A stretch of DNA of 64,000 bases from Alphaproteobacteria bacterium (GTDB taxonomy: Bacteria; Pseudomonadota; Alphaproteobacteria; CACIAM-22H2). The notes under the pieces are model-generated. The model had not been told where the DNA came from. It did no database searches and worked only from the letters and a program-made list of their open reading frames with translations. The position numbers and the translations under genes were made by a program. Location of the stretch: NCBI GenBank assembly GCA_016793165.1, contig JAEULA010000096.1:76699-140698 (forward strand). The letters run 5' to 3'. Positions 14,893-28,932 of the stretch are shown in pieces (the stretch's first letter is position 1; each line of letters begins with the position of its first letter).

Positions 14893-15813
14893 ATGACTCG
14901 ACGAGATCGTCCACGTCTCACGGCACCGGTTGCGGTGCTTGCCGCGCTCGCCGCGGCCACGCTCTGGGCGGAGCCGGCCGCCGCCTGGTGGTTCTTCAAC
15001 AAGGGAAAGGCGGCCGTCGACGCCGCGGACGATGCCGGCAAGAAGCGCGCGTCCTACTACGACAAGCTCGCCGATCCGACGGCGACGGACGCCCAGATCG
15101 ACGCGGCCAAGACCGCCGCGGACACCGCGACGAAGGACGCGCTCAAGAAGACCACCGAGTTCGGCACCAGCGTGCCCGGCACGTCGATCACCGGTCCGCC
15201 GCCGACTTCCGTCAAGGGCGGCATCTGGCAGGCGCTCAAGGAGACGCTGAAGTGGCTCATCTCCTCGACGACCGACCGGCCGGGCCCCAGCGACGCGCAA
15301 CTCGCCGCGGCGATGCCCGAATCCGGCGTGCTCGTCGCCGATCAGACATCGAGCTATCTGGACTTCGACTACGGCACCGATTCCCGCATGGCTCCGGTCC
15401 TGTTCGGCACGGCGCAGTTCACCGCGTCGCTGTCGACCCTCGTCATCGACGGGACCAGCTTCGGCGTCGCGGAGCTGGCGGCCCTGCCGGCGCCGGATCG
15501 TGCGCTCGCCGCGCTCTCCGGCGACGCCGTCGTCGCCGGGCTGACGGGCGAGATCGCGGCGACCTCGCCGAGCTGGGATCCGTTCGACCACCTGTCCGAC
15601 CCGGCGGCCTACCGAGCCGTCTTCGAGGTCGAGTTCACGAGCTTCGATCCTGGCGAGGATGCGATCGGCGGGCGGCTGTTCTATCTCGCCGTCGGACCGT
15701 TCGCCGAGATCGCCGAGCCCGGGACGCTCGCGGTCCTGGCCGGCGCCGGCTGCATCTTCGTCCTGGCGCGCCGACGCCCGGCCGGGCGTTCGCCCGGAAC
15801 GATCGTCGCCTAG
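14893..15813 (+). CDS. Secreted PEP-CTERM-type sorting-signal protein, otherwise of unknown function.
   Basis: GAAGGGAGG SD. N-terminal signal peptide (APVAVLAALAAATLWAEPAAA). C-terminus IAEPGTLAVLAGAGCIFVLARRRP is a PEP-like motif, then a hydrophobic helix, then a basic cluster. Confidence 0.7.
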   Translation: MTRRDRPRLTAPVAVLAALAAATLWAEPAAAWWFFNKGKAAVDAADDAGKKRASYYDKLADPTATDAQIDAAKTAADTATKDALKKTTEFGTSVPGTSITGPPPTSVKGGIWQALKETLKWLISSTTDRPGPSDAQLAAAMPESGVLVADQTSSYLDFDYGTDSRMAPVLFGTAQFTASLSTLVIDGTSFGVAELAALPAPDRALAALSGDAVVAGLTGEIAATSPSWDPFDHLSDPAAYRAVFEVEFTSFDPGEDAIGGRLFYLAVGPFAEIAEPGTLAVLAGAGCIFVLARRRPAGRSPGTIVA

Positions 15814-15942: not shown

Positions 15943-16056
15943 GTCGGCGGGGACGAAATCGTCCGCCGCCGCCGGGTCCTGCGGGACCGCCGCCGGCACG
16001 CAGCGTGAAGTGCATGACACCGTTTGTTTTCGGCGCGTGATCACCTCGCAGAGGCC

Positions 16057-17892
16057 ATGCCGATGCAGGTTCGACGTAGTCAGGGCGCTTGGGACGATGC
16101 GATCGCGCGGAGCGCCGTTCCGGCGAACGGCGGCGCGCCGCCTGCGCATCGCCGGCTCGCGGCCGTGCTCGTCGCGGACATGGTCGGCTACACCCGCCTC
16201 ATGCAGGTGGACGAGGAGCTGACCTACCGCCGTCTGACGGCCCTGCGCACGGGCCTGATCGAGCCGCTGGTCGCGGCACATTCCGGATGGATCGCCAAGA
16301 ATACCGGCGACGGGTTCATCGTCGTGTTCGACACCGGCCTCGACGCGGTGCGCTGCGCCATCGAGCTGCAGCGCACGACGGTCGCGCGGGCGCGCGCGGA
16401 GCCGGCCGACCGGCGCATCAGCTTCCGCGTCGGCATCAACATCGCCGAGATCATCGTCGAGCCCAGCGACGTGTTCGGCGACGGCGTCAACGTGTCGTCG
16501 CGCCTCCAGACCTACGCCGAGCCCGGCGGCATCATCATCGCCGACGTCGTCGCGGACCAGCTTGCGGACGAGGCGGGGATCCGGCTGATCGACCTCGGCG
16601 AGCTGCCGCTGCGCAATCGCGCGCGCCCGGTCCGCGCGTTCAGCCTGCGCATGGACGACGGGGCCCTGGACGGCCTCGCGGCCGCCGCCGGCGAGACCGA
16701 GAGCCGCGCATCGATCGTGGTCATGCCATTCCGCGAGCAGGCGGCCGGGCCGGCGTCGTCCTATTTCGCCGAGGGCATCGTCGACGACATCATCCACGGC
16801 CTGTCGGGACTGCGGGAGCTGTTCGTGATCTCGCGCGGCTCCACGCTCGGGCTCGACGATCGCGACGCCGATGCGCGCGCCATCGGCCGCGAGCTCGGCG
16901 TGCGCTACGTGTTGAGGGGGCGTATCGACCGGACGCGGGACCGCATCCAGATCCGCACCGAGCTCGACGATGCGGCGACCGGGACCGTCATCTCCGCCGA
17001 CCGGTACGACGGCGCGATGTCGGAGATCTTCGATCTCCACGGGCGCATCGCGATGCGGGTCGTGAAGACGATCGCCCCGCATGTGCGCGAGCGCGAGCTC
17101 CTGCGCGCGATGCGAAAGCATCCGCAGAACATGACCGCCTACGATCTCCTGCTGCAGGCGCTCGATCCGCTCTTCCGCATGGAGCGCGAGCCGTTCACGC
17201 GCGCCCGCGCGCTGCTGCAGCAGGCCGTTGCGCACGACCCGAGCTACGGCCCGGCCTATTCCTACGCGGCCTACTGGCACCTGCTGCGCGTCGGCCAAGG
17301 CTGGTCGCCGGATGTCGCCGCCGACTCGACCGAGGCCGCGCGCGCCGCGGCCGCGGCCATCGAGCGCGACGGCAACGATGCGCTCGCGCTCGCCATCCAG
17401 GGCCACGTGCATTCGTATCTGCACAAGGACTACGAGACGGCCATGGAGCTGCAGAACCGCGCGGTCGAAGCGGGCCCGAGCTGCGCCATGGCGTGGACGC
17501 TCAGCAGCGCGACCTGCGGCTATCTCGGGCTGGGCGCGGTCGCCGTCGCCCGTGCCGAGCGGGGCCTCGAGCTGTCGCCGCGCGGCCCGCACGTCGTCTA
17601 CCACGAGCACATCCTGTCGCAGGCGCACTACGTCGCCGGCAACCACGACGCCGCCGTCGAATGGGGGCGGCGCGCGGCGAAGCACAACGAGGGCCTGACC
17701 TCGAACCTGCGCTGCCTCGCCGCCGCGCTCGTCGCCGTCGGCCGCATCGACGAGGCCCGCGAGATCGGCCGGCGCATCGTGGCGCTCGCCCCCGAGCTGC
17801 GCCTGCAGGACTTCGCGGCGCGCACGCCGCTGCGCGGCGACGTGCGCGACCGCTTCATCCAACGGCTTCGCACGGCGGGGATCCCGGACTGA
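16057..17892 (+). CDS. Class III adenylate/guanylate cyclase with a C-terminal TPR-like regulatory region.
   Basis: RRLAAVLVADMVGYTRLM...KNTGDGFIVVFD...FRVGINIAEII...GDGVNVSSRLQ is a class III cyclase catalytic core, followed by ~400 aa of helical repeat. First ATG used; the track start at 16024 is TTG. Confidence 0.8.
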   Translation: MPMQVRRSQGAWDDAIARSAVPANGGAPPAHRRLAAVLVADMVGYTRLMQVDEELTYRRLTALRTGLIEPLVAAHSGWIAKNTGDGFIVVFDTGLDAVRCAIELQRTTVARARAEPADRRISFRVGINIAEIIVEPSDVFGDGVNVSSRLQTYAEPGGIIIADVVADQLADEAGIRLIDLGELPLRNRARPVRAFSLRMDDGALDGLAAAAGETESRASIVVMPFREQAAGPASSYFAEGIVDDIIHGLSGLRELFVISRGSTLGLDDRDADARAIGRELGVRYVLRGRIDRTRDRIQIRTELDDAATGTVISADRYDGAMSEIFDLHGRIAMRVVKTIAPHVRERELLRAMRKHPQNMTAYDLLLQALDPLFRMEREPFTRARALLQQAVAHDPSYGPAYSYAAYWHLLRVGQGWSPDVAADSTEAARAAAAAIERDGNDALALAIQGHVHSYLHKDYETAMELQNRAVEAGPSCAMAWTLSSATCGYLGLGAVAVARAERGLELSPRGPHVVYHEHILSQAHYVAGNHDAAVEWGRRAAKHNEGLTSNLRCLAAALVAVGRIDEAREIGRRIVALAPELRLQDFAARTPLRGDVRDRFIQRLRTAGIPD

Positions 17893-17937
17893 GCCCGCGC
17901 CGCGACGGCCGACGAACACGAACCCAGGGAGGGGACA

Positions 17938-18801
17938 ATGACGGGGAACACCGGCAACACGGGCAATACCGGCAACACCGGAAACACCGGCAATGCCGGG
18001 AACGCGGGGCTGGCCGCCGGCGGCTGGTTCTTTCCCGATCGCATCGATCGCCCCTTCGTGTGGGAAGCAGGGGGAACCGCGCAGCTCACGACGCCGACGC
18101 CGTTCCCGGACAACCGCTGGGGACCCGACTGGCTGGCGTGGACGATCCTGCACGACTTCGCCACCACGAACTGGCGCGCCATCTCCTGGAGCGCATCCGA
18201 CGCGATGATCCCGTCGACACCGGTCGCGCAGAAGCGCGAGCTCGACGGCCTGGTGAAGGCCGCCGAGGACGAACGCGCCGACGCGCTGGGCGAGATACTC
18301 GCGCAGAACCAGGAGTTCCTCAGCTGCTTCGTGGCGCTGCTCGGGATCTCGACGAGCTCGCATCCGAACACGCGCCAGCTGCTGCATGCGGCCGAGCTCA
18401 TCGGCACCTTCGTCGTCATGCACTTCAAGCGCATGGTCAATCGGCCGCGGCCGAGCCAGCTGTGCCCGGCGCTGATGCCGCCGGTCGTGGTGCCCGGCCA
18501 CGCCGCCTACCCCAGCGGCCACGCCACGCAGGCGCATCTCGCGGCTCTCTGCCTCGAGGAGATGCTGTCCGGGGTTCCGTACTTCACGCCGGCATTGCCG
18601 AACGCACTGGGCGCGCTCGCGCGGCGCATCGCGCGCAATCGCGAGATCGCGGGGCTCCACTATCCGACCGACTCCGCTGCCGGCCGTGAACTCGCGATCG
18701 GGGCGCTCGGCCTGCTCAAGACCGCCATGCCGGTCGACGCAGACGGCAAGTCGCGCTTCACCCTCGTCGTCGAGGCGGCGCGCCGGGAGTGGACGACATG
18801 A
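17938..18801 (+). CDS. PAP2 / vanadium-haloperoxidase superfamily protein (soluble type) with an N-terminal (TGN)n repeat.
   Basis: All three superfamily motifs are present: K-x6-RP (HFKRMVNRPRP), PSGH (AYPSGHATQ) and R-x5-H-x3-D (ARNREIAGLHYPTDS). No TM segments. GGGAGGGG SD. Confidence 0.75.
   Translation: MTGNTGNTGNTGNTGNTGNAGNAGLAAGGWFFPDRIDRPFVWEAGGTAQLTTPTPFPDNRWGPDWLAWTILHDFATTNWRAISWSASDAMIPSTPVAQKRELDGLVKAAEDERADALGEILAQNQEFLSCFVALLGISTSSHPNTRQLLHAAELIGTFVVMHFKRMVNRPRPSQLCPALMPPVVVPGHAAYPSGHATQAHLAALCLEEMLSGVPYFTPALPNALGALARRIARNREIAGLHYPTDSAAGRELAIGALGLLKTAMPVDADGKSRFTLVVEAARREWTT
17941..18003 (+). repeat. Imperfect 9-bp tandem repeat encoding (TGN)5(AGN)2 at the N-terminus of the PAP2-like protein.
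   Basis: acggggaac accggcaac acgggcaat accggcaac accggaaac accggcaat gccgggaac gcgggg. The units differ mainly at wobble positions. Confidence 0.85.
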
Positions 18802-19865
18802 GCCCCGCGGGCGGGATCCCCGGATCACCGGGGCAGCTCGAGGCCATGATCGAGGCGCTGCAGGATCGCGTGCTTCCGGTGAAGCCGCTTGCCGGCGAGG
18901 ACTTCGATCCGATGACAGCGTCGCAGCAGGAGCTCATCGAGGTCGGCCTGCCGCCAAGGCCGGCCGTGGCCGATCCGGGAGTGCTGCAGGCGTGGCGCAA
19001 GGTCGTCGGGCCGCTGCCGCTGAAGATCCTGGCCTGGCGCCTCAGCCAGCTCGACTCGACGCTCGACTATCGCGTCGGCGCGGCCCGGGGTCCGGCATCG
19101 GGGCGCAGCGGCACCAGCCGCAACTGGTCGGGGATCGTCGTGACCGCGCGCGACGACGCGACACGTCCCGGCGCCACGATGTTCGACCAGGTCTTCGGCA
19201 GCTGGACGGTGCCGATGCCGACCTTGCCGGCCGACCATGCCGCCGACGCTGTCTATCGCTGCTCGACCTGGATCGGGATCGACGGTCATCGCCGCCTGTC
19301 GTCGTCGCTGCCGCAGATCGGCACGACGCTCGTCGTCGAGGTGGTCGGCGGCCAGCCCCGGCCGCCGCGCATCGAGGTGTGGTGGCAATGGTGGCTGCGC
19401 GAGCATTTCTTCGGGCCGGTCCCGATCGCGAACTTCGCCGTCGACTTCGGCGACGAGATCGCGGCCGCGCTGACGGCGATCGATCCGAGGCTCGTGCGAT
19501 TGAACCTCCGCAATGTCACCCGCAACGACCCGCCGCATGTCGTCTCGATCGCGGCGCCGACCGTCATCATCGGTCCCGGCATGAACGCCAGCGCCGCCGC
19601 GCGCGGATTGACCGCGGAGTGGATCGCCGAGCGCCCGACGGCCCTGAACGACACGTGGCTCCATCCGCTGCCGGATTTCGGCGCCGTCACGTTCACGGGT
19701 TGCTACGCGATCGAATCCGGCGGCGCGCTGCGCACCCTGGCGGCGGGCAGGAACGTGCGCATGGTCGCACGGCAGCAGAGCCCGGCACGCGTCGCGGTGC
19801 TGTCGCGCCCCGACCCGCCGCCGCACGCCAGCGCCCTCGATCGGACGATCCGCTTCGTCGGGTAG
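18798..19865 (+). CDS. Peptidase G1 (eqolisin / scytalidoglutamic peptidase-like, Pfam Peptidase_A4) homologue.
   Basis: SRNWSGIVV, STWIGIDG...LPQIGTT and TAEWIAERP align with the SNWGGAIL, AWVGIDG...ILQTG (catalytic Gln) and AEFIIED (catalytic Glu) blocks of scytalidoglutamic peptidase as I remember them. There is an ATGA overlap with the upstream PAP2-like gene (ATG 18798, TGA 18799-18801). Confidence 0.65.
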   Translation: MSPAGGIPGSPGQLEAMIEALQDRVLPVKPLAGEDFDPMTASQQELIEVGLPPRPAVADPGVLQAWRKVVGPLPLKILAWRLSQLDSTLDYRVGAARGPASGRSGTSRNWSGIVVTARDDATRPGATMFDQVFGSWTVPMPTLPADHAADAVYRCSTWIGIDGHRRLSSSLPQIGTTLVVEVVGGQPRPPRIEVWWQWWLREHFFGPVPIANFAVDFGDEIAAALTAIDPRLVRLNLRNVTRNDPPHVVSIAAPTVIIGPGMNASAAARGLTAEWIAERPTALNDTWLHPLPDFGAVTFTGCYAIESGGALRTLAAGRNVRMVARQQSPARVAVLSRPDPPPHASALDRTIRFVG

Positions 19866-19976
19866 GCGCCGGCGACGACCGGGTCCGCGGCGGCCGGCGC
19901 GCGACACCGTCGACATTGCGCGCCGTGCCGGGCGGTGGTCACACTCGCCGCGTTCGCGACGACGCCGAGAGGACGA

Positions 19977-21134
19977 ATGACCACGCAGGACGAGGCGGCC
20001 GCCGGCTACGGCGCCGAGAGCGCCGCCATGGCGGCCTATCTGGCGGCCGGCGCGCAGCGCGCAGCGACGCTGGGCAATCGCGGGCCCATCCGCTTCGACG
20101 CCGGGGGCCGCGTCGCGCCCGACATCCTCGAGGCCTACTGGCGCTGCGGCTTCTACGTTTTCGAGGGCGTGCTCGATCGCGCCGAGCTCGCCGAGATCGA
20201 GGCGGAGGTGAAGGATCTCCTCGATCGGCTGCCGAGCCGGCAGGGCGCGCCGGTGGACGCCAAGGGTCGGCCGGCGGTCGCCGTCGACTGCAAGGCCCCG
20301 ACGCTGTTCTGGGCGAAGCCGCTCGGCGATCCGATGGGCGGGACGTCGTTCGCCAACGGCCGCCATCCGGTGAAGATGTTCGAGCCCGAGGCGGCCGCCG
20401 GCGCGCCCGACGAGGTCGTCTATCTCATCCTCGGCTCGCTGCAGTTCCTCGAGACCCAGCTGCGCGTCTACGGCCATCCCGGCCTGCTCGCCGTCGCCGC
20501 CGCGGTGAACGGCGAAGACTTCGCGCCGTTCAACGAGGCGCTGTTCATCAAGGAGCCCGGCCTCGGCGCATCGGTCGCCTGGCACCGCGACGGCGTCACG
20601 CACTGGGACAGCCCCGACTGGGACGAGGGCTCGCACGGCTTCAACTTCATGGCGCAGCTCTACGGCTGCACGCCGGCGAACGGCGTGTGGGTCGTGCCCG
20701 GCTCCCACAAGCTGCGCAAGGTCGACATCAGGGCGATGGTCGCGCAGGCCGGCAGCGACCGGCTGCCCGACGCGGTGCCCATCGTCTGCAAGCCGGGGGA
20801 CGTTGCGATCACCAACCGCCAGGCCGTGCACGGCTCCTTCGCCAACACCAGCCGCGACTGGCGCGTGACTCTGAACTTCGGTTTCCACCGGCGCCGCTCG
20901 GTGCTCGGCGTCAAGGGCGGCGGCCTGCACAATGCGCCGGCGATCTACGACGAGGCGCGCATCCGCGCGCGCGCGCGCGTGATCGGCTACGCGATCGACG
21001 CGCGCCGGTCGCGCTTTCCGGAGGAGGCGCCCTTCGCCTATCGCCCGCATGTCGACGGCGGCGAGCTTTGGACCTGGGACGCCGCCGCGAAGGCGTCGAT
21101 GAAGGACTACAACCTCCTCGACCTGAGCATCTGA
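19977..21134 (+). CDS. Phytanoyl-CoA dioxygenase (PhyH) family Fe(II)/2-oxoglutarate oxygenase.
   Basis: WHRDG...(H-x-D facial triad), VVPGSHK and NRQAVHGS. GAGAGGA SD before the ATG at 19977; the track start at 19935 is GTG. Confidence 0.7.
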   Translation: MTTQDEAAAGYGAESAAMAAYLAAGAQRAATLGNRGPIRFDAGGRVAPDILEAYWRCGFYVFEGVLDRAELAEIEAEVKDLLDRLPSRQGAPVDAKGRPAVAVDCKAPTLFWAKPLGDPMGGTSFANGRHPVKMFEPEAAAGAPDEVVYLILGSLQFLETQLRVYGHPGLLAVAAAVNGEDFAPFNEALFIKEPGLGASVAWHRDGVTHWDSPDWDEGSHGFNFMAQLYGCTPANGVWVVPGSHKLRKVDIRAMVAQAGSDRLPDAVPIVCKPGDVAITNRQAVHGSFANTSRDWRVTLNFGFHRRRSVLGVKGGGLHNAPAIYDEARIRARARVIGYAIDARRSRFPEEAPFAYRPHVDGGELWTWDAAAKASMKDYNLLDLSI

Positions 21135-21169: not shown

Positions 21170-21940
21170 TCAGCGCATCAGGAAGCCGCCGTCCACGGCC
21201 AGCACGTGTCCGGTGATGTAGCTCGCGAGATCGCTGGCGAGGAACACGGCGCCGCGCGCGCATTCGAGCGCCGTGCCCATGCGGCCGAGCGGAATGCGGG
21301 CGCGCGCGGCGGCGAGCGTCTCCGGCGTCATGCCCGTGCGCTGCATCGGCGTGTCGATCGATCCGGGCGACAGCGTGTTGACCGTGATGCCATGGGGGCC
21401 GAGCTCCTTGGCGAACGATTTCGTGAGCGTGATCGTGCCGGCCTTGGTGACCGCATAGGCGGTCGCGCCGACGAAGCCGCCGACGACCCCCGCGCCGCTC
21501 GAGAAGTTGACGATACGCCCCCAGCGCCGCGGCTTCATCGCCTCGCCGGCGGCGCGGCAGAGGAAGTACTGGCTGCGCAGGTTGACCCGCATCAGCCGCT
21601 GCCACTCGGCCTCGTCGATCCCGTCGAGATCGAGACGGCGAAGGACCGCCGCGACGTTGAGCAGGATGTCGAGGCGGCCCTCGCGCGCGAGGCTGCGGGC
21701 GACCAGGCTCTCGCAGGCCGCGAGGTCGCCAATATCGACGATCTCGGTCGTGTGCCCGCCCCCGCGCAACGCCGCGCCGGCGGCGGCGAGGCCGGCGGTG
21801 TCGACGTCGCACGCGACGACGCGCGCGCCGGCGGCGGCGAGGATCTCGGCGGCGGCGCGGCCGATGCCCGAGGCGGCGCCCGTGACGATCGCCACGCGGC
21901 CGGCGAGACCGAGAGTCGCAAGCGGGAATCCGGCGCTCAT
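21170..21940 (-). CDS. SDR family oxidoreductase.
   Basis: 256 aa. VAIVTGAASGIGRA (TGxxxGIG), NVAA and YAVTKAG (YxxxK). ATGA overlap with the upstream SDR. Confidence 0.85.
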   Translation of the reverse strand: MSAGFPLATLGLAGRVAIVTGAASGIGRAAAEILAAAGARVVACDVDTAGLAAAGAALRGGGHTTEIVDIGDLAACESLVARSLAREGRLDILLNVAAVLRRLDLDGIDEAEWQRLMRVNLRSQYFLCRAAGEAMKPRRWGRIVNFSSGAGVVGGFVGATAYAVTKAGTITLTKSFAKELGPHGITVNTLSPGSIDTPMQRTGMTPETLAAARARIPLGRMGTALECARGAVFLASDLASYITGHVLAVDGGFLMR

Positions 21941-22698
21941 CGCAGCATCAGCCCGCCTTCGACGTCGAGCGTGTGGCCCGTCACGTAGCTGCCCCAGTCC
22001 GAGACCAGGAACAGGATCGCATCGGCGACCTCCTCGGCGCGGCCGGCGCGGCGCAGCGGCACCTTTGCGGCGAAATGCGCATCCCAGCTCGGTCCGGTGA
22101 AGCCGTGCCGCCCCATCGGCGTGTCGATGCCGCCGGGGCAGACGGTGTTGACGAGGACGCCGTCGGCGGCGAACTGCCGGGCGAGCGACTTCGTGAGCGC
22201 CAGCACGCCGCCCTTCGAGATCGCGTAGACCGACGAGTTGTCGGCGCCGCCATTGAACGCCGCAGTCGAGCTCACATTGACGATGCGACCGTCGCGCCGG
22301 CGGCGCATCGGGCGCGCCGCCGCGCGACACATCGCGAACTGGCTCAGCAGGTTCGCGTCCATCACCTCGTCCCACAACGCCGCGTCGGTCTCGGCGATCG
22401 ATACACGGCGCAGGATGGCGGCGGCGTTGACGAGGATGTCGAGGCGGCCCTCGCGCGCCAGCACCTCGTCGACGACGCGCTCGCACGCCGCGGGCTTCGC
22501 CAGATCGGCCGCGATCGCATGGTCGCAGGCGCCGGGTGCGATCGGCTTCACGTCGACGCCGGTCACGCGGGCGCCGGCGGCCACGAGGCGCGCGGCGGTC
22601 GCGCGGCCGATTCCCGATGCCGCTCCCGTGACGATCGCCACCTTGCCGTCGAGCCCGAAGCCTGCGCCGGGATCGTCGACCGAATGGGAAGGATTCAT
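21937..22698 (-). CDS. SDR family oxidoreductase (tandem paralogue).
   Basis: 253 aa. VAIVTGAASGIGRA, NAAA and YAISKGG. Confidence 0.85.
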   Translation of the reverse strand: MNPSHSVDDPGAGFGLDGKVAIVTGAASGIGRATAARLVAAGARVTGVDVKPIAPGACDHAIAADLAKPAACERVVDEVLAREGRLDILVNAAAILRRVSIAETDAALWDEVMDANLLSQFAMCRAAARPMRRRRDGRIVNVSSTAAFNGGADNSSVYAISKGGVLALTKSLARQFAADGVLVNTVCPGGIDTPMGRHGFTGPSWDAHFAAKVPLRRAGRAEEVADAILFLVSDWGSYVTGHTLDVEGGLMLR

Positions 22699-22862: not shown

Positions 22863-24218
22863 TCAGCGATACCCCGTCACGACGCTCGCGTCGGCGGGCA
22901 GGCCACCCTTGATCTCGGTGAAGCGCTCGTCCGCGAGACCGGTCTCGACCAGGACCTCGCGCAGGCCCTGCTGCGAATCGACATGGACGATCGCCGTATT
23001 GCGGGTCGTCGTCCGGGCGCCGTCGACCTTCGCGACCGCCTCGCCGCGCTGGGGCCGGAAGCGCAACGCCGCGTTGGGCAGCCGCGGCACGCGCTCGCGC
23101 TCGTCGACCTTCACGCGCACCGTCGCGGTCATGCCGGGCCGCAGGAGCCGCTCGGGATTGGCCGCCGAGATGATCGCGATGTACGTCACGACGTTCTGGA
23201 TCAGCAGCGGCGCCAGCCGCAGCTGCTGGATCTCGCCGGAGAAGCTGCGGCCGGGAAATGCGGCCACGCGGAAGTCCACCGCCTGCCCCTCGCGCAGCGA
23301 TCCGACATCCGCCTCGTCGACGAAGAGCTCGAGCTGCATCTGCCCGAGGTCCTGGGCGATGGTGAACAGCACCGGCGCCTGCAGGCTCGCGGTGACGGTC
23401 TGCCCCACCTCCACATTGCGCTCGATCACGACGCCGGCCATCGGCGCATGGATCGCCGTCCGATCGAGATCGAAGCGGGCGCGGTTCAGCGCCGCCTCGC
23501 GCTGGCGCACGGTCGCCTCGGCGACCAGCGCCTCGGCCTCGGTGGTGCGGATCGCCGCCTGGGCAGCGTCGGCGGCGGCGGCGAGCGAGCGCACCTGGAG
23601 CTCCGCGGCGAGCCGGCCCGCGGCAGCGCGATCGAGCTCGGCGCGTGCGCGGTCGCGCTCGCTGCCCGACACGAACTGCTCGCGGCCGGGCGCCGTGCGG
23701 CGCTGGAATTCGGCACGCGCGAAGGCGAGCGAGGCATCCGCGACGGCGCGTTCCGCCTCGGCGCCCTCGGCACGCAACCGGGCGCCCGCCGCCTCGGCGG
23801 ACTGCTGCGCGCTGCGGCTGCGCGCGACGGCGAGCCCGGCCTGCGCAAGCTCGACCTCGGCGGCGGCCTCGGCGACGCGGGCGCGATAGATGTCCGACGC
23901 CAGCTCGGCGAGCAGCTGGCCCTCGCTCACCGGGCTGTTGAAATCGACGGCGATACGCGCGACGCGGCCGGAGATCTCGGAGCCGACCTGGACGCTGCCG
24001 CGGGCGACGACCGTGCCGGTGGCGTCGACCTGCCGGACGACCGGACCGGGCTCGAGGCGCACGGTTGCAAAGGCGGCCGGCGGCGGTCGCGCGACCATCA
24101 GCCCGCTCGCCACCAGCCCGCCGCCGCCGAGGAGCGCCAGCAGCGCCGCCCATAGCGGCCAGCGCTTGCGCGCACGCGACGGCGAGGGCGATGAGGGGTT
24201 CGGCGACGGTTCGGTCAT
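22863..24218 (-). CDS. HlyD/MacA-type periplasmic adaptor (membrane fusion protein).
   Basis: N-terminal TM anchor (WPLWAALLALLGGGGLVASGL), a long Ala/Arg/Glu coiled-coil hairpin, and barrel motifs (IHAPMAGVV..RNV.VGQTV, FTIA.D...M). The ATG at 24218 is preferred over the track start at 24233. Confidence 0.8.
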   Translation of the reverse strand: MTEPSPNPSSPSPSRARKRWPLWAALLALLGGGGLVASGLMVARPPPAAFATVRLEPGPVVRQVDATGTVVARGSVQVGSEISGRVARIAVDFNSPVSEGQLLAELASDIYRARVAEAAAEVELAQAGLAVARSRSAQQSAEAAGARLRAEGAEAERAVADASLAFARAEFQRRTAPGREQFVSGSERDRARAELDRAAAGRLAAELQVRSLAAAADAAQAAIRTTEAEALVAEATVRQREAALNRARFDLDRTAIHAPMAGVVIERNVEVGQTVTASLQAPVLFTIAQDLGQMQLELFVDEADVGSLREGQAVDFRVAAFPGRSFSGEIQQLRLAPLLIQNVVTYIAIISAANPERLLRPGMTATVRVKVDERERVPRLPNAALRFRPQRGEAVAKVDGARTTTRNTAIVHVDSQQGLREVLVETGLADERFTEIKGGLPADASVVTGYR

Positions 24219-24319
24219 CGAGGTCGGCACCATAGCGGCCGGTCCCCGCGATAGAAACCGATCCGGCCGCGGACTCGGCTGTTCCCAAGTGCCGCCCGGC
24301 GCGCGACCATGGCCGCGCC

Positions 24320-27141: not shown

Positions 27142-28255
27142 GAGCGCGATGCTCGAGGTGGCCTTGCGGCAGACGAGCCCGATCCCGCTCGACGTGCGAT
27201 TCACCTGCGCCCGGCGCGAGCTGATCGCCCTCGTCGGACCGTCCGGCGCGGGCAAGACCTCGGTCCTGCGCGCGATCGCGGGGCTCGTGCGGATCCGCGC
27301 CGGACGGATCGCCGTCGGCGGCGAGACCTGGCTGGACCCGGCAGGCGCAATCGACGTCCCGCCGCATCGCCGCGAGGTCGGCTTCGTCTTCCAGAGCTAC
27401 GCCTTGTTCCCGCACATGTCGGCGCTGGGCAACGTGGCGGCGGCGCTCGGCCACCTGCCGTCCGCGGCGCGCCATGCCGAGGCGCGCGACTGGCTGCGCC
27501 GGATGCATCTCGAGGGCCTCGAGGACCGCAGGCCGGGCGCGCTGTCGGGCGGCCAGCAGCAGCGCGTCGCGATGGCGCGCGCGCTCGCGCGGCGGCCCAA
27601 GGTGCTGCTGCTCGACGAGCCCTTCGCGGCGGTCGACAAGGTGACACGGCGCAAGCTCTATGCCGAGCTCGCCGAGCTGCGCAGCACCCTCGACATCCCC
27701 TGCGTGCTGGTGACCCACGATCTCGACGAGGCGGCGATGCTCGCCGACCGGATGGCGATCCTGCGGCGCGGCGCCACGATCCAGCTCGGCACGCCCGAGG
27801 ACGTCATGCGTCGGCCGGCGAGCGTCGACGTGGCGCGGCTCATCGACCTGCGCAACATCTTCGCCGGGCGCCTCGTCGCCCACGAGCCCGAGAAGGCGCT
27901 CAGCAGGCTGGAGTGGGCCGGCGCGACGCTGGAGACCGCGCACCGGCCGGACATCGCACCCGGCACGCCGGTCACCTGGTGCATTCCGCCCTCCGACATC
28001 GTGCTGCACCGGCGCGACCGCCCGTCGCGCGGCGAGCGCGAGAATCCCGTGCGCGGCAGCATCTTGCAGGCGCTGCGCCTCGGCGACACGACGCTGGTCG
28101 CGCTGCGGCCCGACACCGCGCCGTCGGCGACGCTGTACCTGTCGATCCCCTCGCACGTCGCCATGCGCAACGGCCTGCAGCCGGGCACGGCGGTCGGCGT
28201 CTCGCTGCTCGCCGGCGGCATCCATCTGATGCCATGGGATCCGACCTTCGCATGA
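27134..28255 (+). CDS. modC: Molybdate ABC transporter ATP-binding protein with a C-terminal TOBE-like domain.
   Basis: Walker [10 protein letters not shown], signature LSGGQQQRV, Walker B LLLDEP, and a ~130-aa C-terminal extension. 8-nt overlap with modB. Confidence 0.85.
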
Positions 28256-28932
28256 CGACCGCACCCGATCCGCTCGCGCCCTTCCCCAAGCTTGCCGCGC
28301 TCGAGCCCGAGGCCCGCGCCGCGCTCGTCGCGGCCGCCCAGCCGATCTCCGCGCCGGCCGGCGCGGTGCTGTTCCGCCCGGGCGACGCCTGCGAGCGCTT
28401 CGTGATGCTGCGCGCCGGCACCGTGCGCGTGCAGCTGCTGTCCGACACCGGGCACGAGATCGTGCTCTACCGCGTCCGCCCCGGCGAGACCTGCGTGATC
28501 ACCACCTCGTGCCTGATCGCGCACGACGCCTACAGCGCGGAGGGCATCGCGGACGGTCCGGTCGACGCGCTGGTCGTGCCGATGGCGGTGTTCGAGTCTC
28601 TGCTCGCGACCTCGCCGGTATTCCGCGGCTTCGTGATGGGCGCGTTCGGCACGCGGCTCGCCGAGCTCATGCACCGGATCGACGACGTCGCCTTCCGGCC
28701 GATCGACGCGCGGCTCGCGGCCCGGCTGCTGGCGAGCGCGGGCGACGAGGTCGCGACGACGCATCAGGCGCTCGCGATCGAGCTCGGCACCGCGCGCGAG
28801 GTGATCAGCCGGCGGCTGAAGCTGTTCGAGCGCGACGGGCTCGTCGCGCTGGGCCGCGGCACGGTCGAGCTGCGCGATCGCGAGGGGCTGCGGCGCGTTG
28901 CCGCGGCCGGCGGTGTGCCGCCGCCAGCGTGA
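28252..28932 (+). CDS. Crp/Fnr family transcriptional regulator.
   Basis: 226 aa. A cNMP-binding-like beta-roll (FRPGDACERFVMLRAGTVRV) and a C-terminal HTH (THQALAIELGTAREVISRRLKLFERDGLV). ATGA overlap with modC. Confidence 0.8.
   Translation: MTTAPDPLAPFPKLAALEPEARAALVAAAQPISAPAGAVLFRPGDACERFVMLRAGTVRVQLLSDTGHEIVLYRVRPGETCVITTSCLIAHDAYSAEGIADGPVDALVVPMAVFESLLATSPVFRGFVMGAFGTRLAELMHRIDDVAFRPIDARLAARLLASAGDEVATTHQALAIELGTAREVISRRLKLFERDGLVALGRGTVELRDREGLRRVAAAGGVPPPA

What the first reader, a model, noticed from the sequence alone, without database searches (positions are those of the whole stretch)
17938..19865. Translationally coupled pair: soluble vanadium-haloperoxidase/PAP2-like protein plus a G1 (eqolisin) glutamic peptidase homologue, neither with a signal peptide
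The upstream protein carries the full K-x6-RP / PSGH / R-x5-H-x3-D motif set of the acid-phosphatase/vanadium-haloperoxidase superfamily but has no TM segments. Its stop overlaps (ATGA) the start of a protein that has the SxNWSG, WIGIDG...Q and AEWIxE blocks of peptidase family G1. To my knowledge that family is mostly fungal and only sporadically reported in bacteria, and its members are acid-active and secreted.

Here the homologue has a ~110-aa N-terminal extension (a possible propeptide) and no Sec signal. I am not aware of a described functional link between these two families. The tight coupling suggests a two-component module of unknown role.
Basis: partly seen in the sequence, partly recalled or inferred. 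Interest (0 to 1): 0.65.

Follow-up and report, generated by a model that had tools for sequence, protein, structure and literature searches.

The report
Conserved cyclase–phosphatase–protease gene trio
The two overlapping genes are real, but they are two-thirds of an apparently undescribed three-gene cassette found in hundreds of soil and water bacteria, which joins a signalling protein, a normally secreted type of phosphatase with a peculiar repeat tail, and a dedicated protease, all kept inside the cell.

Summary
ORF 17938-18801 is a PAP2 enzyme with all catalytic motifs. ORF 18798-19865 is a G1 glutamic peptidase with its Gln/Glu dyad. They overlap by ATGA, and neither has a signal peptide or membrane segment.

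The unit is a trio, not a pair. The upstream gene (16024-17892) encodes a class III adenylate cyclase fused to a TolB_N-like/TPR region. In about 140 loci from other genomes the order cyclase-TPR → PAP2 → G1 is almost invariant.

The PAP2 protein looks like a periplasmic class A acid phosphatase, not a vanadium haloperoxidase. It always starts with 3-12 tandem tripeptides (here GNT/GNA).

The peptidase keeps a pro-region that it shares with secreted bacterial relatives. It has lost the signal peptide and changed the otherwise conserved Glu69 to Gln.

A sister cassette of similar size replaces G1 with a leaderless S8 subtilase and carries other repeat tails. In Rhizobium, Phaeobacter and Palleronia the cyclase is replaced by a DNA-binding domain.

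My best reading (about 0.35) is a cytoplasmic, proteolysis-gated signalling module. I found no description of it in the literature. The function is inferred, not shown.

The parts
16024..17892 (+). CYCX: a 622-aa class III adenylate/guanylate cyclase fused to a TolB_N-like region and TPR repeats. The start is the TTG given by the ORF list; the true start may be the ATG at residue 12 or 14.
   Evidence: Pfam finds Guanylate_cyc and TPR families. The cyclase domain matches PDB 3mr7 at E 6e-39 and also Ma1120. An orthologue (480-1010 bits, against ≤430 for paralogues) lies directly upstream of PAPX in about 58 of 60 and 78 of 80 loci. No membrane segment is predicted.
16144..16644 (+). Cyclase catalytic domain, residues about 41-207.
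   Evidence: The metal-binding Asp52 and Asp96 and the GDGVNVSSRL Asn/Arg motif are conserved across 57 orthologues. The domain aligns to 3mr7 over residues 41-207.
16696..17796 (+). TolB_N-like middle region plus TPR repeats, residues about 225-591. This is the presumed sensor or partner-binding part.
   Evidence: TPR_2, TPR_14 and ANAPC3 hits cover residues 435-591. An NCBIfam CadC-like stretch covers 247-414. This part is retained when the N-terminal output domain is swapped for a winged-helix domain in Rhizobium, Palleronia and Phaeobacter.
17927..17934 (+). Shine-Dalgarno sequence GGGAGGGG in front of PAPX.
   Evidence: Read directly from the sequence.
17938..18801 (+). PAPX: a 287-aa leaderless soluble PAP2 enzyme that resembles class A acid phosphatases.
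   Evidence: Pfam PAP2 scores 33.7 bits. PDB 7f17 acid phosphatase matches at E 1.4e-9. Foldseek finds class A acid phosphatases at TM 0.73.
17941..18009 (+). N-terminal tandem tripeptide tail, (GNT)5-6 then (GNA)2, encoded by a 9-bp repeat with synonymous differences between copies.
   Evidence: Tandem Repeats Finder reports period 9, 5.2 copies. AlphaFold2 pLDDT is below 50 here. An exact tripeptide repeat is present in 112 of 117 distinct cassette PAPX proteins.
18022..18057 (+). Conserved linear motif G-W-F-F-x-D-R-x-D-x-P-F, between the tail and the helical core.
   Evidence: D34, R35 and P39 are invariant and F40 is nearly invariant, although the region is predicted to be disordered. That pattern is typical of a partner-docking or cleavage motif. 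This reading is an inference.
18121..18786 (+). PAP2 helical core, residues 62-283. Catalytic motifs: K164-x6-RP (18427-18453), PSGH (18511-18522) and R-x5-H-x3-D (18640-18672).
   Evidence: All motif residues are invariant in alignment A3. The helices are modelled at pLDDT above 90.
18798..18801 (+). ATGA overlap of the PAPX stop and the G1X start, indicating translational coupling.
   Evidence: Read from the sequence. The same junction occurs in 65 of about 115 loci. Metatranscriptome contigs span it: X31 at 18668-18868 and X25 at 18709-18859.
18798..19865 (+). G1X: a 355-aa leaderless pro-form of a G1 (eqolisin) glutamic peptidase.
   Evidence: Pfam Peptidase_A4 scores 91.8 bits. The AlphaFold2 model has pLDDT 87. 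Foldseek matches 2ifw and 1y43.
18798..19106 (+). Pro-region, residues 1-103, including the conserved F36-D-P…G-L-P-P-R-P55 motif at 18903-18962.
   Evidence: Helices 11-24, 43-48 and 60-70 are confidently packed. A low-confidence linker at 98-102 sits just before SRNWSG, the position of the pro/mature junction in fungal G1 enzymes. The same motif follows Sec signal peptides in non-cassette homologues L067, L068 and L079.
19107..19817 (+). G1 catalytic β-sandwich. Catalytic Gln173 is at 19314-19316 and Glu278 at 19629-19631. The clade-specific Gln197 (WQWW) is at 19386-19388.
   Evidence: The profile alignment to scytalidoglutamic and aspergilloglutamic peptidases is. Residue counts are: Q53 132/132, E136 131/132, and E69→Q in 127/132 cassette copies against E in all 14 leader-bearing homologues.

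Best explanation
The finding is the distal two-thirds of a self-contained cytoplasmic three-protein module. I read it as a proteolysis-gated signal-transduction unit.

**The three parts**
- **CYCX** is the transducer. Its TolB_N-like/TPR half is a peptide- or protein-binding receiver. Its N-terminal class III cyclase domain is the output (cAMP or another cNMP). In about a quarter of the fetched loci a neighbouring Crp-type regulator probably reads that output.
- **PAPX** is an acid-phosphatase-type PAP2 enzyme kept in the cytoplasm. Its disordered N-terminus carries a lineage-specific tandem di- or tripeptide tail plus a conserved docking motif.
- **G1X** is made 1:1 with PAPX by translational coupling. 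It is a zymogen-form glutamic peptidase.

**Proposed sequence of events**
1. A trigger activates G1X; cytoplasmic acidification is the obvious candidate for a G1 zymogen.
2. G1X cuts the PAPX tail or docking region, or the tail–TPR complex.
3. That cut changes both PAPX activity and the state of the TPR receiver, and so changes cyclase output.

**Shown here**
- The gene trio is obligate.
- All three enzymes keep their catalytic residues.
- All three lack export signals.
- The repeat tail is universal.
- The protease slot is filled by unrelated protease classes.
- The output domain of the TPR protein swaps between a cyclase and a DNA-binding domain.

**Inferred, not shown**
- Who binds or cuts whom.
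- What the trigger is.
- That the nucleotide product is cAMP.
For: - **Obligate linkage.** The order CYCX → PAPX → G1X holds in about 58 of 60 loci found with the G1 query and 78 of 80 found with the PAP2 query. The taxa are Bradyrhizobium, Bosea, Reyranella, Methylobacterium, Acetobacteraceae and a few Chloroflexota/Burkholderiales MAGs. No other gene is conserved beside the trio.
- **Coupling and transcription.** The ATGA or TGATG junction occurs in 77 of about 115 loci. RNA-derived contigs span the PAPX/G1X junction and the CYCX/PAPX gap.
- **Catalytic competence.** The residues are intact in G1X, PAPX and CYCX.
- **Cytoplasmic location.** No signal peptide or membrane segment is found in any of the three; pI values are 6.4-7.9. 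Secreted relatives of G1X have the same pro-region behind a real signal peptide.
- **Clade-specific active-site change.** The eqolisin residue Glu69, called 'strictly conserved' in PMC6154417, is Gln in 127 of 132 cassette copies. It is Glu in all 14 leader-bearing homologues.
- **Proteolysis is the required function.** A sister cassette keeps cyclase-TPR + repeat-tailed PAP2 but uses a leaderless S8 subtilase in several gene orders. The genome scan for it found 426 relatives; 80 were fetched.
- **Transducer logic.** In the Rhizobium leguminosarum complex (62 chromids, including pRL12 of strain 3841), Palleronia and Phaeobacter, the TPR protein carries a SARP/OmpR-type winged-helix domain instead of the cyclase. 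PAP2 + S8 remain.
- **Crp-type neighbour.** A Crp-type cNMP-binding regulator ORF lies in the flanks of 63 of 246 fetched loci. This includes every Bosea locus fetched with the G1 query, directly upstream of CYCX.
- **The tail is a recognition element.** It is always at the extreme N-terminus and is predicted disordered. The unit stays conserved down to about 64% core identity while copy number drifts. Tails differ between paralogous cassettes of one genome.
Against: - There is no experimental datum, and no structure prediction of the complex was possible.
- Neither PAPX nor G1X has a recognisable cNMP-binding or other receiver domain, so the direction of information flow is unknown.
- G1 peptidases characterised so far work at pH 2-5 (PMC3009609). 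Activity at cytoplasmic pH is unproven.
- The Crp-type neighbour is absent next to the cassette in this window and in about three-quarters of loci.
- A cytoplasmic non-specific acid phosphatase is expected to be harmful. That fits a toxin/effector reading at least as naturally as a signalling one.
- The cassette sits at several different chromosomal positions within Bradyrhizobium, and its sister cassettes lie on plasmids. That pattern is also seen for accessory conflict systems.
Confidence: 0.35

Rival explanations
1. **Protease-activated toxic effector (abortive-infection or stress-suicide type conflict system).** The leaderless acid-phosphatase-like PAPX is a latent toxin. It would strip phosphate from nucleotides, sugar phosphates or lipid carriers, and it is held off by its N-terminal tail. 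The TPR protein senses an invader or damage signal. The dedicated protease removes the tail and unleashes PAPX. The logic matches bacterial gasdermins and other protease-activated effectors.
For: - Class A acid phosphatases are normally exported; here the enzyme is kept in the cytoplasm with intact catalytic residues.
- The protease partner is replaced by an unrelated class (G1 or S8).
- The tails are hypervariable.
- Several paralogous cassettes can sit in one genome.
- Genomic position varies within Bradyrhizobium, and related cassettes are plasmid-borne.
- The cyclase gives a weak PycC hit.

These are all features common in conflict systems.
Against: - PADLOC finds nothing for PAPX or G1X.
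- The neighbours are ordinary metabolic genes, not defence islands.
- In Bosea the locus is syntenic across eight species, as for a core gene.
- Replacement of the cyclase by a DNA-binding domain points to gene regulation rather than cell killing.
- A Crp-type regulator is a frequent neighbour.
Confidence: 0.22
2. **Peptide-producing (RiPP-like or pheromone-like) system.** The tandem repeat tail is a multi-copy core peptide fused to its own processing enzyme. The protease releases many identical di-, tri- or oligopeptides, possibly after modification. These act as ligands of the TPR receptor, as in RRNPP-type peptide sensing, or are exported.
For: - The tail consists of 3-12 identical short units at the extreme N-terminus.
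- Unit identity is conserved while copy number drifts.
- TPR domains are the peptide receptors of RRNPP systems (general knowledge).
- A protease is always present.
- In Rhizobium leguminosarum the triad is followed by an aKG-HExxH peptide β-hydroxylase (TIGR04267, 72 bits) and a ThiF-like enzyme. Most tail units contain Asn or Asp (171 of 188). Whether those residues could be hydroxylated was not tested.
Against: - No modifying enzyme, transporter or immunity gene is conserved with the trio.
- The HExxH/ThiF genes are seen only in Rhizobium.
- Di- and tripeptide products would be indistinguishable from ordinary peptide turnover.
- The role of a fully conserved PAP2 active site is not explained.
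Confidence: 0.15
3. **Non-classically secreted acid hydrolases.** PAPX and G1X leave the cell by an unknown leaderless route, with the repeat tail as export tag. They scavenge phosphate and peptides in acidic micro-habitats, and the cyclase merely regulates expression.
For: - Both enzyme families are normally extracytoplasmic and acid-active (PMC3009609; class A acid phosphatase structures).
- Many hosts come from acidic soils and peat, including Acetobacteraceae, Rhodopila and Bradyrhizobium.
- In locus L040 the tail is fused directly to G1X.
Against: - No secretion-system genes are linked.
- pI values are near neutral, unlike acid-stable secreted G1 enzymes.
- The tail sequence is too variable to be one export signal.
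- The Glu69→Gln change tracks loss of the signal peptide, suggesting adaptation to a different milieu.
- The S8 partners are also leaderless.
Confidence: 0.08
4. **Chance neighbours.** PAPX and G1X are unrelated genes that happen to be adjacent, with no functional link.
For: None beyond the absence of experimental data.
Against: - Adjacency and orientation are conserved in about 140 of 140 informative loci across several orders and phyla.
- The start/stop overlap is conserved.
- An analogous trio exists with a different protease.
Confidence: 0.01

Closest known systems
MEROPS family G1 (eqolisins): scytalidoglutamic peptidase, aspergilloglutamic peptidase, Alicyclobacillus pepG1
   Same: - The β-sandwich fold matches at TM 0.80-0.84.
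- The Gln53/Glu136 dyad, Asp43, Trp67 and the four conserved glycines are present.
- The protein is made as a pro-form.
   Different: - It has no signal peptide.
- The pro-region is about 100 aa and is of a bacterial type.
- Glu69 is replaced by Gln and Pro72 is lost (WQWW motif).
- Its pI is near neutral.
- It is obligately linked to PAP2 and cyclase-TPR genes.
- Its pH optimum is unknown.
Class A non-specific acid phosphatases (PhoN, PhoC, E. blattae and P. aeruginosa acid phosphatases; PAP2 superfamily)
   Same: - The whole helical core superposes at TM about 0.73.
- All three signature motifs are invariant.
   Different: - It has no signal peptide.
- It has a roughly 60-aa disordered N-terminus with a tandem tripeptide tail and a DRxDxPF motif.
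- It is in an operon with a protease and a cyclase.
- Its substrate is unknown.
Vanadium-dependent haloperoxidases
   Same: It shares the PAP2-type active-site residues.
   Different: - Fold similarity is much weaker (E ≥ 8e-3, TM normalised to target about 0.3).
- The protein is half the size and lacks the second helical bundle.
Receptor-type class III adenylate cyclases and SARP/CadC-like wHTH-TPR regulators of Alphaproteobacteria
   Same: CYCX has the common cyclase–TolB_N-like–TPR architecture. Sister cassettes use a wHTH–TPR architecture.
   Different: I found no description of such a cyclase or regulator with an obligate PAP2 + protease partner pair (literature searches).
Protease-activated effector systems (bacterial gasdermin operons) and RRNPP peptide/TPR signalling
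   Same: The parts list is similar: a dedicated protease of interchangeable class, a TPR sensor, and a partner protein with a removable terminal peptide.
   Different: - There is no homology of the effector.
- The removable element is an N-terminal simple repeat.
- The output is a cyclase or DNA-binding domain.
- Everything is cytoplasmic and in Alphaproteobacteria.
- This is a resemblance in logic only and was not tested.
Pycsar (cyclase + cNMP-activated effector anti-phage systems)
   Same: The first gene encodes a class III-type cyclase, with a weak PycC hit of 20 bits.
   Different: - The partners have no cNMP-binding, membrane or TIR effector domain.
- The cyclase carries a large TPR region.
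- The cyclase can be replaced by a DNA-binding domain.

Membership tests
MEROPS G1 / Pfam Peptidase_A4 (G1X) | Sequence match to the family model above the curated threshold | tested here: met
   PF01828 scores 91.8 bits against a cutoff of 22.3.
MEROPS G1 / Pfam Peptidase_A4 (G1X) | Catalytic dyad Gln53 / Glu136 (scytalidoglutamic peptidase numbering) | tested here: met
   Q173 and E278 align to Gln53 and Glu136. They are conserved in 132/132 and 131/132 cassette copies.
MEROPS G1 / Pfam Peptidase_A4 (G1X) | Two-sheet β-sandwich 'half-pipe' fold | tested here: met
   The AlphaFold2 model has pLDDT 87. Foldseek matches 2ifw at E 3e-11, TM 0.80, and 1y43_B at TM 0.84. This rests on a predicted structure.
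MEROPS G1 / Pfam Peptidase_A4 (G1X) | Other conserved residues: Asp43, Gly8/41/44/55, Trp67 | tested here: met
   D43 is present in 127/132, each glycine in 132/132, and W67 in 123/132 (F in 9).
MEROPS G1 / Pfam Peptidase_A4 (G1X) | 'Strictly conserved' Glu69 and highly conserved Pro72 (PMC6154417) | tested here: not met
   Position 69 is Gln in 127/132 cassette copies (Q197 here), and position 72 is Ala, Val or Leu. Glu is kept in all 14 leader-bearing bacterial homologues.
MEROPS G1 / Pfam Peptidase_A4 (G1X) | Secreted pre-pro-enzyme (signal peptide + pro-segment) | tested here: not met
   A pro-region is present, but there is no signal peptide and the frame is closed upstream. Homologues L067, L068 and L079 do carry one.
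MEROPS G1 / Pfam Peptidase_A4 (G1X) | Pepstatin-insensitive endopeptidase activity with an acid optimum | not testable with these tools
   This needs the purified protein.
PAP2 superfamily / class A non-specific acid phosphatase (PAPX) | Signature motifs KX6RP, PSGH and SRX5HX3D | tested here: met
   K164…R171P172, P192SGH195 and R235…H241…D245 are all invariant. PF01569 scores 33.7 bits against a cutoff of 27.2.
PAP2 superfamily / class A non-specific acid phosphatase (PAPX) | Soluble all-helical class A fold | tested here: met
   Foldseek matches 7f17, 9qcj, 1d2t and 2a96 at E 6e-7 to 1e-3, TM about 0.65-0.73. 7f17 matches at E 1.4e-9 by sequence.
PAP2 superfamily / class A non-specific acid phosphatase (PAPX) | Periplasmic or secreted location (signal peptide) | tested here: not met
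   The N-terminus is a Gly/Asn/Thr repeat, and the maximum hydropathy is 1.27.
PAP2 superfamily / class A non-specific acid phosphatase (PAPX) | Phosphomonoesterase activity through a phospho-His intermediate | not testable with these tools
   This needs an enzyme assay.
Vanadium-dependent haloperoxidase (PAPX) | Two four-helix-bundle architecture of about 450-600 aa that binds vanadate | tested here: not met
   The core is 225 aa with a single bundle. The best haloperoxidase matches have E ≥ 8.5e-3 and TM (target) about 0.3. Vanadate binding itself is not testable here.
Class III nucleotidyl cyclase (CYCX) | Cyclase homology domain with two metal-binding Asp and the transition-state Asn/Arg | tested here: met
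   PF00211 scores 33 bits and 3mr7 matches at E 6e-39. D52, D96 and the GDGVNVSSRL motif are conserved; the substrate-specifying Lys92 is conserved in only ≥70%. Product identity was not tested.
Pycsar anti-phage system | Cyclase gene paired with an effector that carries a cNMP-binding domain plus a membrane or TIR domain | tested here: not met
   No such domains are found in PAPX or G1X. PADLOC gives only a 20-bit PycC hit for the cyclase.
RiPP biosynthetic cluster | Short precursor peptide with conserved modifying enzyme(s) and usually a transporter | tested here: inconclusive
   A repeat tail that could be a core peptide and a protease are present. No modifying enzyme or transporter is conserved with the trio. 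An aKG-HExxH hydroxylase is adjacent only in Rhizobium.

The most novel reading that the evidence does not exclude
The cassette and its S8 and winged-helix sister forms would be a previously unrecognised class of bacterial signalling system.

- A hypervariable N-terminal di- or tripeptide-repeat 'code' on a cytoplasmic PAP2 phosphatase is read by the TPR domain of a dedicated transducer.
- The same code is erased or released by a dedicated zymogen protease.
- This converts a proteolytic event, for example acid activation of an intracellular glutamic peptidase, into cAMP synthesis or direct transcriptional control.

As a corollary, G1X would be the first glutamic peptidase adapted to work inside a neutral cytoplasm, through the Glu69→Gln change.
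Probability: 0.3. Interest if true: 0.85.

Novelty: categorically new. Interest (0 to 1): 0.78.

Why it matters
- **Two families out of place.** G1 glutamic peptidases and class A acid phosphatases are regarded as secreted, acid-active hydrolases. Here both are kept in the cytoplasm with intact active sites and locked genetically to a signal transducer.
- **A new kind of regulatory circuit.** If the proposed logic is right, it couples proteolysis, a phosphatase and a peptide-repeat recognition code to cAMP or transcription.
- **It is common.** Each genome scan found more than 400 relatives among 185,579 species genomes. The PAP2 family has 587 clusters at 50% identity, mostly in Alphaproteobacteria. 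It occurs in important plant-associated and environmental bacteria: Bradyrhizobium, the Rhizobium leguminosarum complex, Bosea, Methylobacterium, Phaeobacter and Acetobacteraceae.
- **It bears on enzyme mechanism.** A natural Glu69→Gln switch coincides with loss of secretion. That makes the long-standing question of why eqolisins need low pH directly testable.
- **It is genetically tractable.** Model strains carry sister cassettes, including R. johnstonii 3841 (pRL12, RL_RS36040-36050) and P. inhibens.

Tried and rejected
- **Vanadium haloperoxidase label.** Rejected in favour of class A acid phosphatase on fold ranking.
- **Collagen-like triple helix for the (GNT)n tail.** Rejected. Several homologues keep Asn, not Gly, as the periodic residue (SNV, ANT, TNS, INT units). 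Sister tails are dipeptide repeats.
- **Phase variation by repeat slippage.** Rejected. All units are multiples of 3 bp and differ at synonymous sites. No length variants were seen in four metagenome runs, but those are assembled contigs, so this evidence is weak.
- **Known defence system.** PADLOC and PHROGs found nothing for PAPX or G1X.
- **Downstream PhyH dioxygenase (19935-21134) as a fourth member.** It is not conserved.
- **A third protease class.** A 439-aa HEFGH-motif protein sits beside a cyclase-TPR + PAP2 pair in metagenome loci L162-L164. It has no family hit and is not related to aKG-HExxH hydroxylases. I do not count it as an established protease.
- **Covariation of tail unit with S8 or TPR divergence.** No clear signal was found.
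- **Look-up of the window's own contig.** It is not on record.
- **First genome scan with the 36-sequence G1 alignment.** It failed for lack of a conserved stretch and was repeated with 12 sequences.
- **Literature searches.** Seven searches found no description of the trio.
- **Structure of a complex.** Not possible with the tools. Model coordinates are not returned, so I could not check whether the pro-region or the tail sits in the G1X cleft.

Full report
**1. The observation**

The window is about 72% G+C. It comes from an uncultured bacterium that recurs in activated-sludge metagenomes.

- ORF A (17938-18801, +, 287 aa) and ORF B (18798-19865, +, 355 aa) are exactly as described.
- They share ATGA at 18798-18801, and ORF A is preceded by GGGAGGGG.
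- Pfam assigns A to PAP2 (33.7 bits, cutoff 27.2) and B to Peptidase_A4 (91.8 bits, cutoff 22.3).
- Neither has a hydrophobic N-terminus or a membrane segment. The maximum 19-residue hydropathy is below 1.35.
- The frame of B is closed just upstream, so no leader is hidden.

**2. The peptidase (G1X)**

A single-sequence search of the PDB found nothing. A 36-sequence profile found aspergilloglutamic and scytalidoglutamic peptidases. It aligns Q173 to Gln53 and E278 to Glu136.

The AlphaFold2 model is confident (pLDDT 87, pTM 0.89). Its best structural matches are those two enzymes, at TM 0.80-0.84.

Residues 1-103 form a helical N-terminal region that packs on the β-sandwich. It is joined by a low-confidence linker (98-102) immediately before SRNWSG, the position where fungal G1 enzymes are cut to maturity.

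The same region, with its FDP…L…YGLPPRP motif, follows a typical Sec signal peptide in more distant bacterial homologues that are not in the cassette (L067, L068, L079). It is therefore a bacterial G1 pro-region, and the cassette clade has lost the leader.

Across 132 cassette copies the counts are as follows:

| Position (scytalidoglutamic peptidase numbering) | Cassette copies |
|---|---|
| Gln53 | 132/132 |
| Glu136 | 131/132 |
| Gly8, Gly41, Gly44, Gly55 | 132/132 each |
| Asp43 | 127/132 |
| Glu69 | replaced by Gln in 127/132 (WQWW motif; Q197 here) |
| Pro72 | lost |

Glu69 is called 'strictly conserved' and positions Gln53 (PMC6154417). All 14 leader-bearing homologues keep Glu at this position. 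So the change tracks the loss of secretion. I infer, without a test, that removing a buried carboxylate may adapt the enzyme to near-neutral pH. Characterised G1 enzymes work at pH 2-5 (PMC3009609).

**3. The PAP2 protein (PAPX)**

- All three signature motifs are invariant in 37 homologues.
- By sequence the closest solved structure is a Pseudomonas aeruginosa acid phosphatase, 7f17, at E 1.4e-9.
- By fold, class A non-specific acid phosphatases (7f17, PhoC, PhoN, E. blattae) lead at E 6e-7 to 1e-3 and TM about 0.7. Vanadium haloperoxidases appear only at E ≥ 8e-3.

PAPX is therefore an acid-phosphatase-type enzyme without its usual signal peptide.

Its first roughly 60 residues are predicted to be disordered but are conserved in a peculiar way.
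- After Met-X come tandem tripeptides, here (GNT)5-6(GNA)2.
- They are encoded by a 9-bp repeat whose copies differ at synonymous sites.
- They are followed by G-W-F-F-x-D-R-x-D-x-P-F, with D34, R35 and P39 invariant.
- An exact tripeptide repeat of 3-12 copies is present in 112 of 117 distinct cassette homologues. The commonest units are GNT 44, GND 23, GNA 11 and GNE 9, and 110 units contain Asn or Asp.

**4. It is a trio**

I fetched loci with a G1 alignment (L001-L080) and with a PAP2 alignment (L081-L159, from 434 relatives). I scored their six-frame ORFs with my own profiles.

- Every full-length cassette-type G1 with upstream sequence has PAPX directly upstream.
- All 80 PAPX loci have G1X directly downstream.
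- The window's upstream gene (16024-17892) has a specific orthologue directly upstream of PAPX in about 58 of 60 and 78 of 80 loci. Those orthologues score 480-1010 bits, against ≤430 for paralogues.

That gene encodes a class III cyclase domain (3mr7, E 6e-39). The metal-binding Asp residues and the Asn/Arg motif are conserved. It is followed by a TolB_N-like region and TPR repeats.

No fourth gene is conserved, and the downstream PhyH dioxygenase is not part of the cassette.

The PAPX/G1X junction is ATGA in 65 and TGATG in 12 of about 115 loci. Short contigs from metatranscriptomes cover all three genes. They span the PAPX/G1X junction (X31 18668-18868; X25 18709-18859) and the CYCX/PAPX gap (X25 17780-17930). 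Possible DNA carry-over in those runs limits this evidence.

**5. The wider family**

An exhaustive profile search gave 587 clusters at 50% identity with E ≤ 1e-30. More distant members also begin with short tandem repeats of quite different composition (SM, MEMQ, DMF, GAGDS, GGGDS…).

Their contexts and a further genome scan (426 relatives, 80 fetched) show a sister cassette. It has cyclase-TPR + repeat-tailed PAP2 + a leaderless S8 subtilase. The gene order varies: S8 is either divergent upstream or downstream on the same strand.

The sister tails are 3-12 copies of di- or tripeptides such as (GAD)n, (GMD)n, (SAD)n, (SSD)n, (MD)n, (FD)n, (GTG)n, (GTS)n, (NQ)n and (NE)n.

- The unit is kept down to about 64% core identity.
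- It changes by concerted single-residue switches (DM/DF/DV, GTG/GTA, NQ/NE).
- Copy number drifts.
- One genome can hold both cassette types with different tails: Roseomonas sp. HF4 has GNE and SAD, and Siccirubricoccus sp. G192 has GNT and GMD.

A third architecture is found on chromids and plasmids:

| Host | TPR protein | PAP2 tail |
|---|---|---|
| Rhizobium leguminosarum complex (62 records, including pRL12 of strain 3841, RL_RS36050/45/40) | SARP/OmpR-type winged helix | (NK)n |
| Palleronia | SARP/OmpR-type winged helix | (NR)13 |
| Phaeobacter inhibens | winged helix | (NSF)6 |

In all three the PAP2 + S8 pair is retained and the winged-helix domain replaces the cyclase.

A Crp-type cNMP-binding regulator ORF lies in the flanks of 63 of 246 fetched loci. 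This includes every Bosea locus fetched with the G1 query, directly upstream of CYCX. It is not adjacent to the cassette in this window.

**6. Interpretation**

Three comparative facts constrain the mechanism.

- The protease slot is filled by unrelated protease classes. Proteolysis itself is therefore required, and G1X is not merely a lectin-like β-sandwich.
- The TPR protein swaps its N-terminal domain between a cyclase and a DNA-binding domain. This is the hallmark of a signal transducer whose constant part is the receiver.
- The PAP2 partner always carries a lineage-specific, extreme-N-terminal, disordered repeat plus a conserved linear motif. This is the kind of element that is bound by a TPR groove or cut by a protease.

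All components are leaderless.

I therefore favour, at about 0.35, a cytoplasmic proteolysis-gated signalling module. In it the zymogen protease acts on the PAPX tail or docking region, and this changes the state of the TPR receiver and hence cAMP or transcription output. Cytoplasmic acidification is a plausible trigger for the G1 version.

The main rival, at about 0.22, is a protease-activated toxic phosphatase of the abortive-infection type. The points in its favour:
- A cytoplasmic acid phosphatase would be expected to be dangerous.
- The protease class is interchangeable.
- The tails are hypervariable.
- Cassettes occur in several copies per genome.
- Genomic positions vary in Bradyrhizobium, and related cassettes are plasmid-borne.

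The points against it:
- The neighbours are ordinary metabolic genes.
- The locus is syntenic across Bosea species.
- The output is a DNA-binding domain or goes through a Crp-type regulator.

A peptide-producing (RiPP- or pheromone-like) reading, at about 0.15, is kept alive by the multi-copy tail. It is also supported by an aKG-HExxH peptide β-hydroxylase next to the Rhizobium triad. However, no modifying enzyme is conserved with the trio.

Leaderless secretion (about 0.08) and chance adjacency (about 0.01) are unlikely.

**7. Comparison with known systems, and novelty**

- G1X meets the defining sequence, dyad and fold criteria of family G1. It fails the secreted pre-pro organisation and the Glu69/Pro72 conservation.
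- PAPX meets the PAP2/class A motif and fold criteria. It fails the periplasmic location.
- CYCX is an ordinary class III cyclase-TPR protein.

Each protein is thus a new variant of a known family. The three-gene system, with its repeat tail, protease displacement and output swapping, matches no known kind of system that I could find. PADLOC and PHROGs have nothing for PAPX or G1X. Seven full-text literature searches found no description. A 2025 preprint mentions soluble PAP2 versions only as unpublished observations.

I rate the system as categorically new at the level of the system. The function rests on comparative inference only.

**8. Limits**

- There is no experiment and no prediction of the complex.
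- ORF-level analyses in high-G+C DNA include shadow ORFs. I relied on profile scores and positions rather than on ORF clusters.
- The locus sets overlap: some genomes appear in both the G1-based and the PAP2-based sets. Counts are therefore of loci, not of independent lineages.

Noticed in passing
L040:7818-8894 (uncultured alphaproteobacterium MFD06714.bin.3.94): This locus has the cyclase-TPR gene and G1X but no PAP2 core. The G1X ORF starts MAANFEGNAGNEGNEGNAGNA…, so the PAPX repeat tail is fused in frame to the peptidase pro-region. It is either a functional 'tail + protease' minimal form or a deletion or assembly artefact of a nanopore MAG.
   Followed up: partly
L023:5797-7944, L026:6106-7962, L031:5854-7869, L037 (Roseomonas sp. 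HF4, Rhodospirillales MAG, Reyranella soli, Reyranella MAG): These PAPX variants carry an insertion of about 320 aa between helix 1 and helix 2. It consists of three tandem β-rich repeats of about 100 aa (G.G.C..D…G.Y.L.C…F.L..P.G…F.L..G…F..GD.F.I.V). It has no Pfam or PHROG match.
   Followed up: partly
L249:10000-12617 (R. johnstonii 3841 pRL12) and L247:8435-11171: Directly after the Rhizobium wHTH-TPR/PAP2/S8 triad lie three more genes: an aKG-HExxH-type peptide β-hydroxylase (TIGR04267, 72 bits), a ThiF-family adenylyltransferase and a 65-73-aa ORF. This looks like a RiPP-like set. It may or may not act on the (NK)n tail.
   Followed up: partly
L162-L164 (metagenome contigs): A cyclase-TPR + (SM)n-tailed PAP2 pair faces a convergent 439-aa leaderless protein with a HEFGH motif. 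That protein has no family assignment. It could be a third, metallo-type protease partner.
   Followed up: partly
L248:8434-12191 (Palleronia sp. THAF1 plasmid pTHAF1_a): Here the triad ((NR)13 tail) is followed by a heme peroxidase family protein and a C1 (papain-type) peptidase.
   Followed up: no
Flanks of L022, L025, L032, L041, L046, L047, L050-L052, L055, L056, L060 (Bosea) and about 50 other loci: A Crp/FNR-type cNMP-binding regulator ORF lies next to the cassette in roughly a quarter of all fetched loci, of both the G1 and S8 types. That is more than I would expect by chance, but I did not test it statistically.
   Followed up: partly
window 14893-15813 (+): This 306-aa ORF has an N-terminal signal-like segment. 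Its C-terminus (…AEPGTLAVLAGAGCIFVLARRRP) looks like a PEP-CTERM sorting signal. It lies just upstream of the cassette.
   Followed up: no
window 19935-21134 (+), 21170-22698 (-), 22863-24233 (-): The downstream neighbours are a PhyH-type dioxygenase (64 bits), two tandem SDR-like ORFs and an HlyD/MacA-like membrane-fusion protein. They are ordinary metabolic and transport genes, not a defence island. Only PhyH was checked against Pfam.
   Followed up: partly
window 27142-28929 (+): This large ORF gives an 87-bit match to my Crp/cNMP-binding profile. It is the only such ORF in the window and lies about 7 kb from the cassette.
   Followed up: no
L160:4444-5970: In one S8-type locus the TPR protein keeps only a remnant of the cyclase domain (18 bits, profile positions 97-155). 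A Crp-type regulator and a Usp gene lie nearby, so cyclase activity may be dispensable in some lineages.
   Followed up: no
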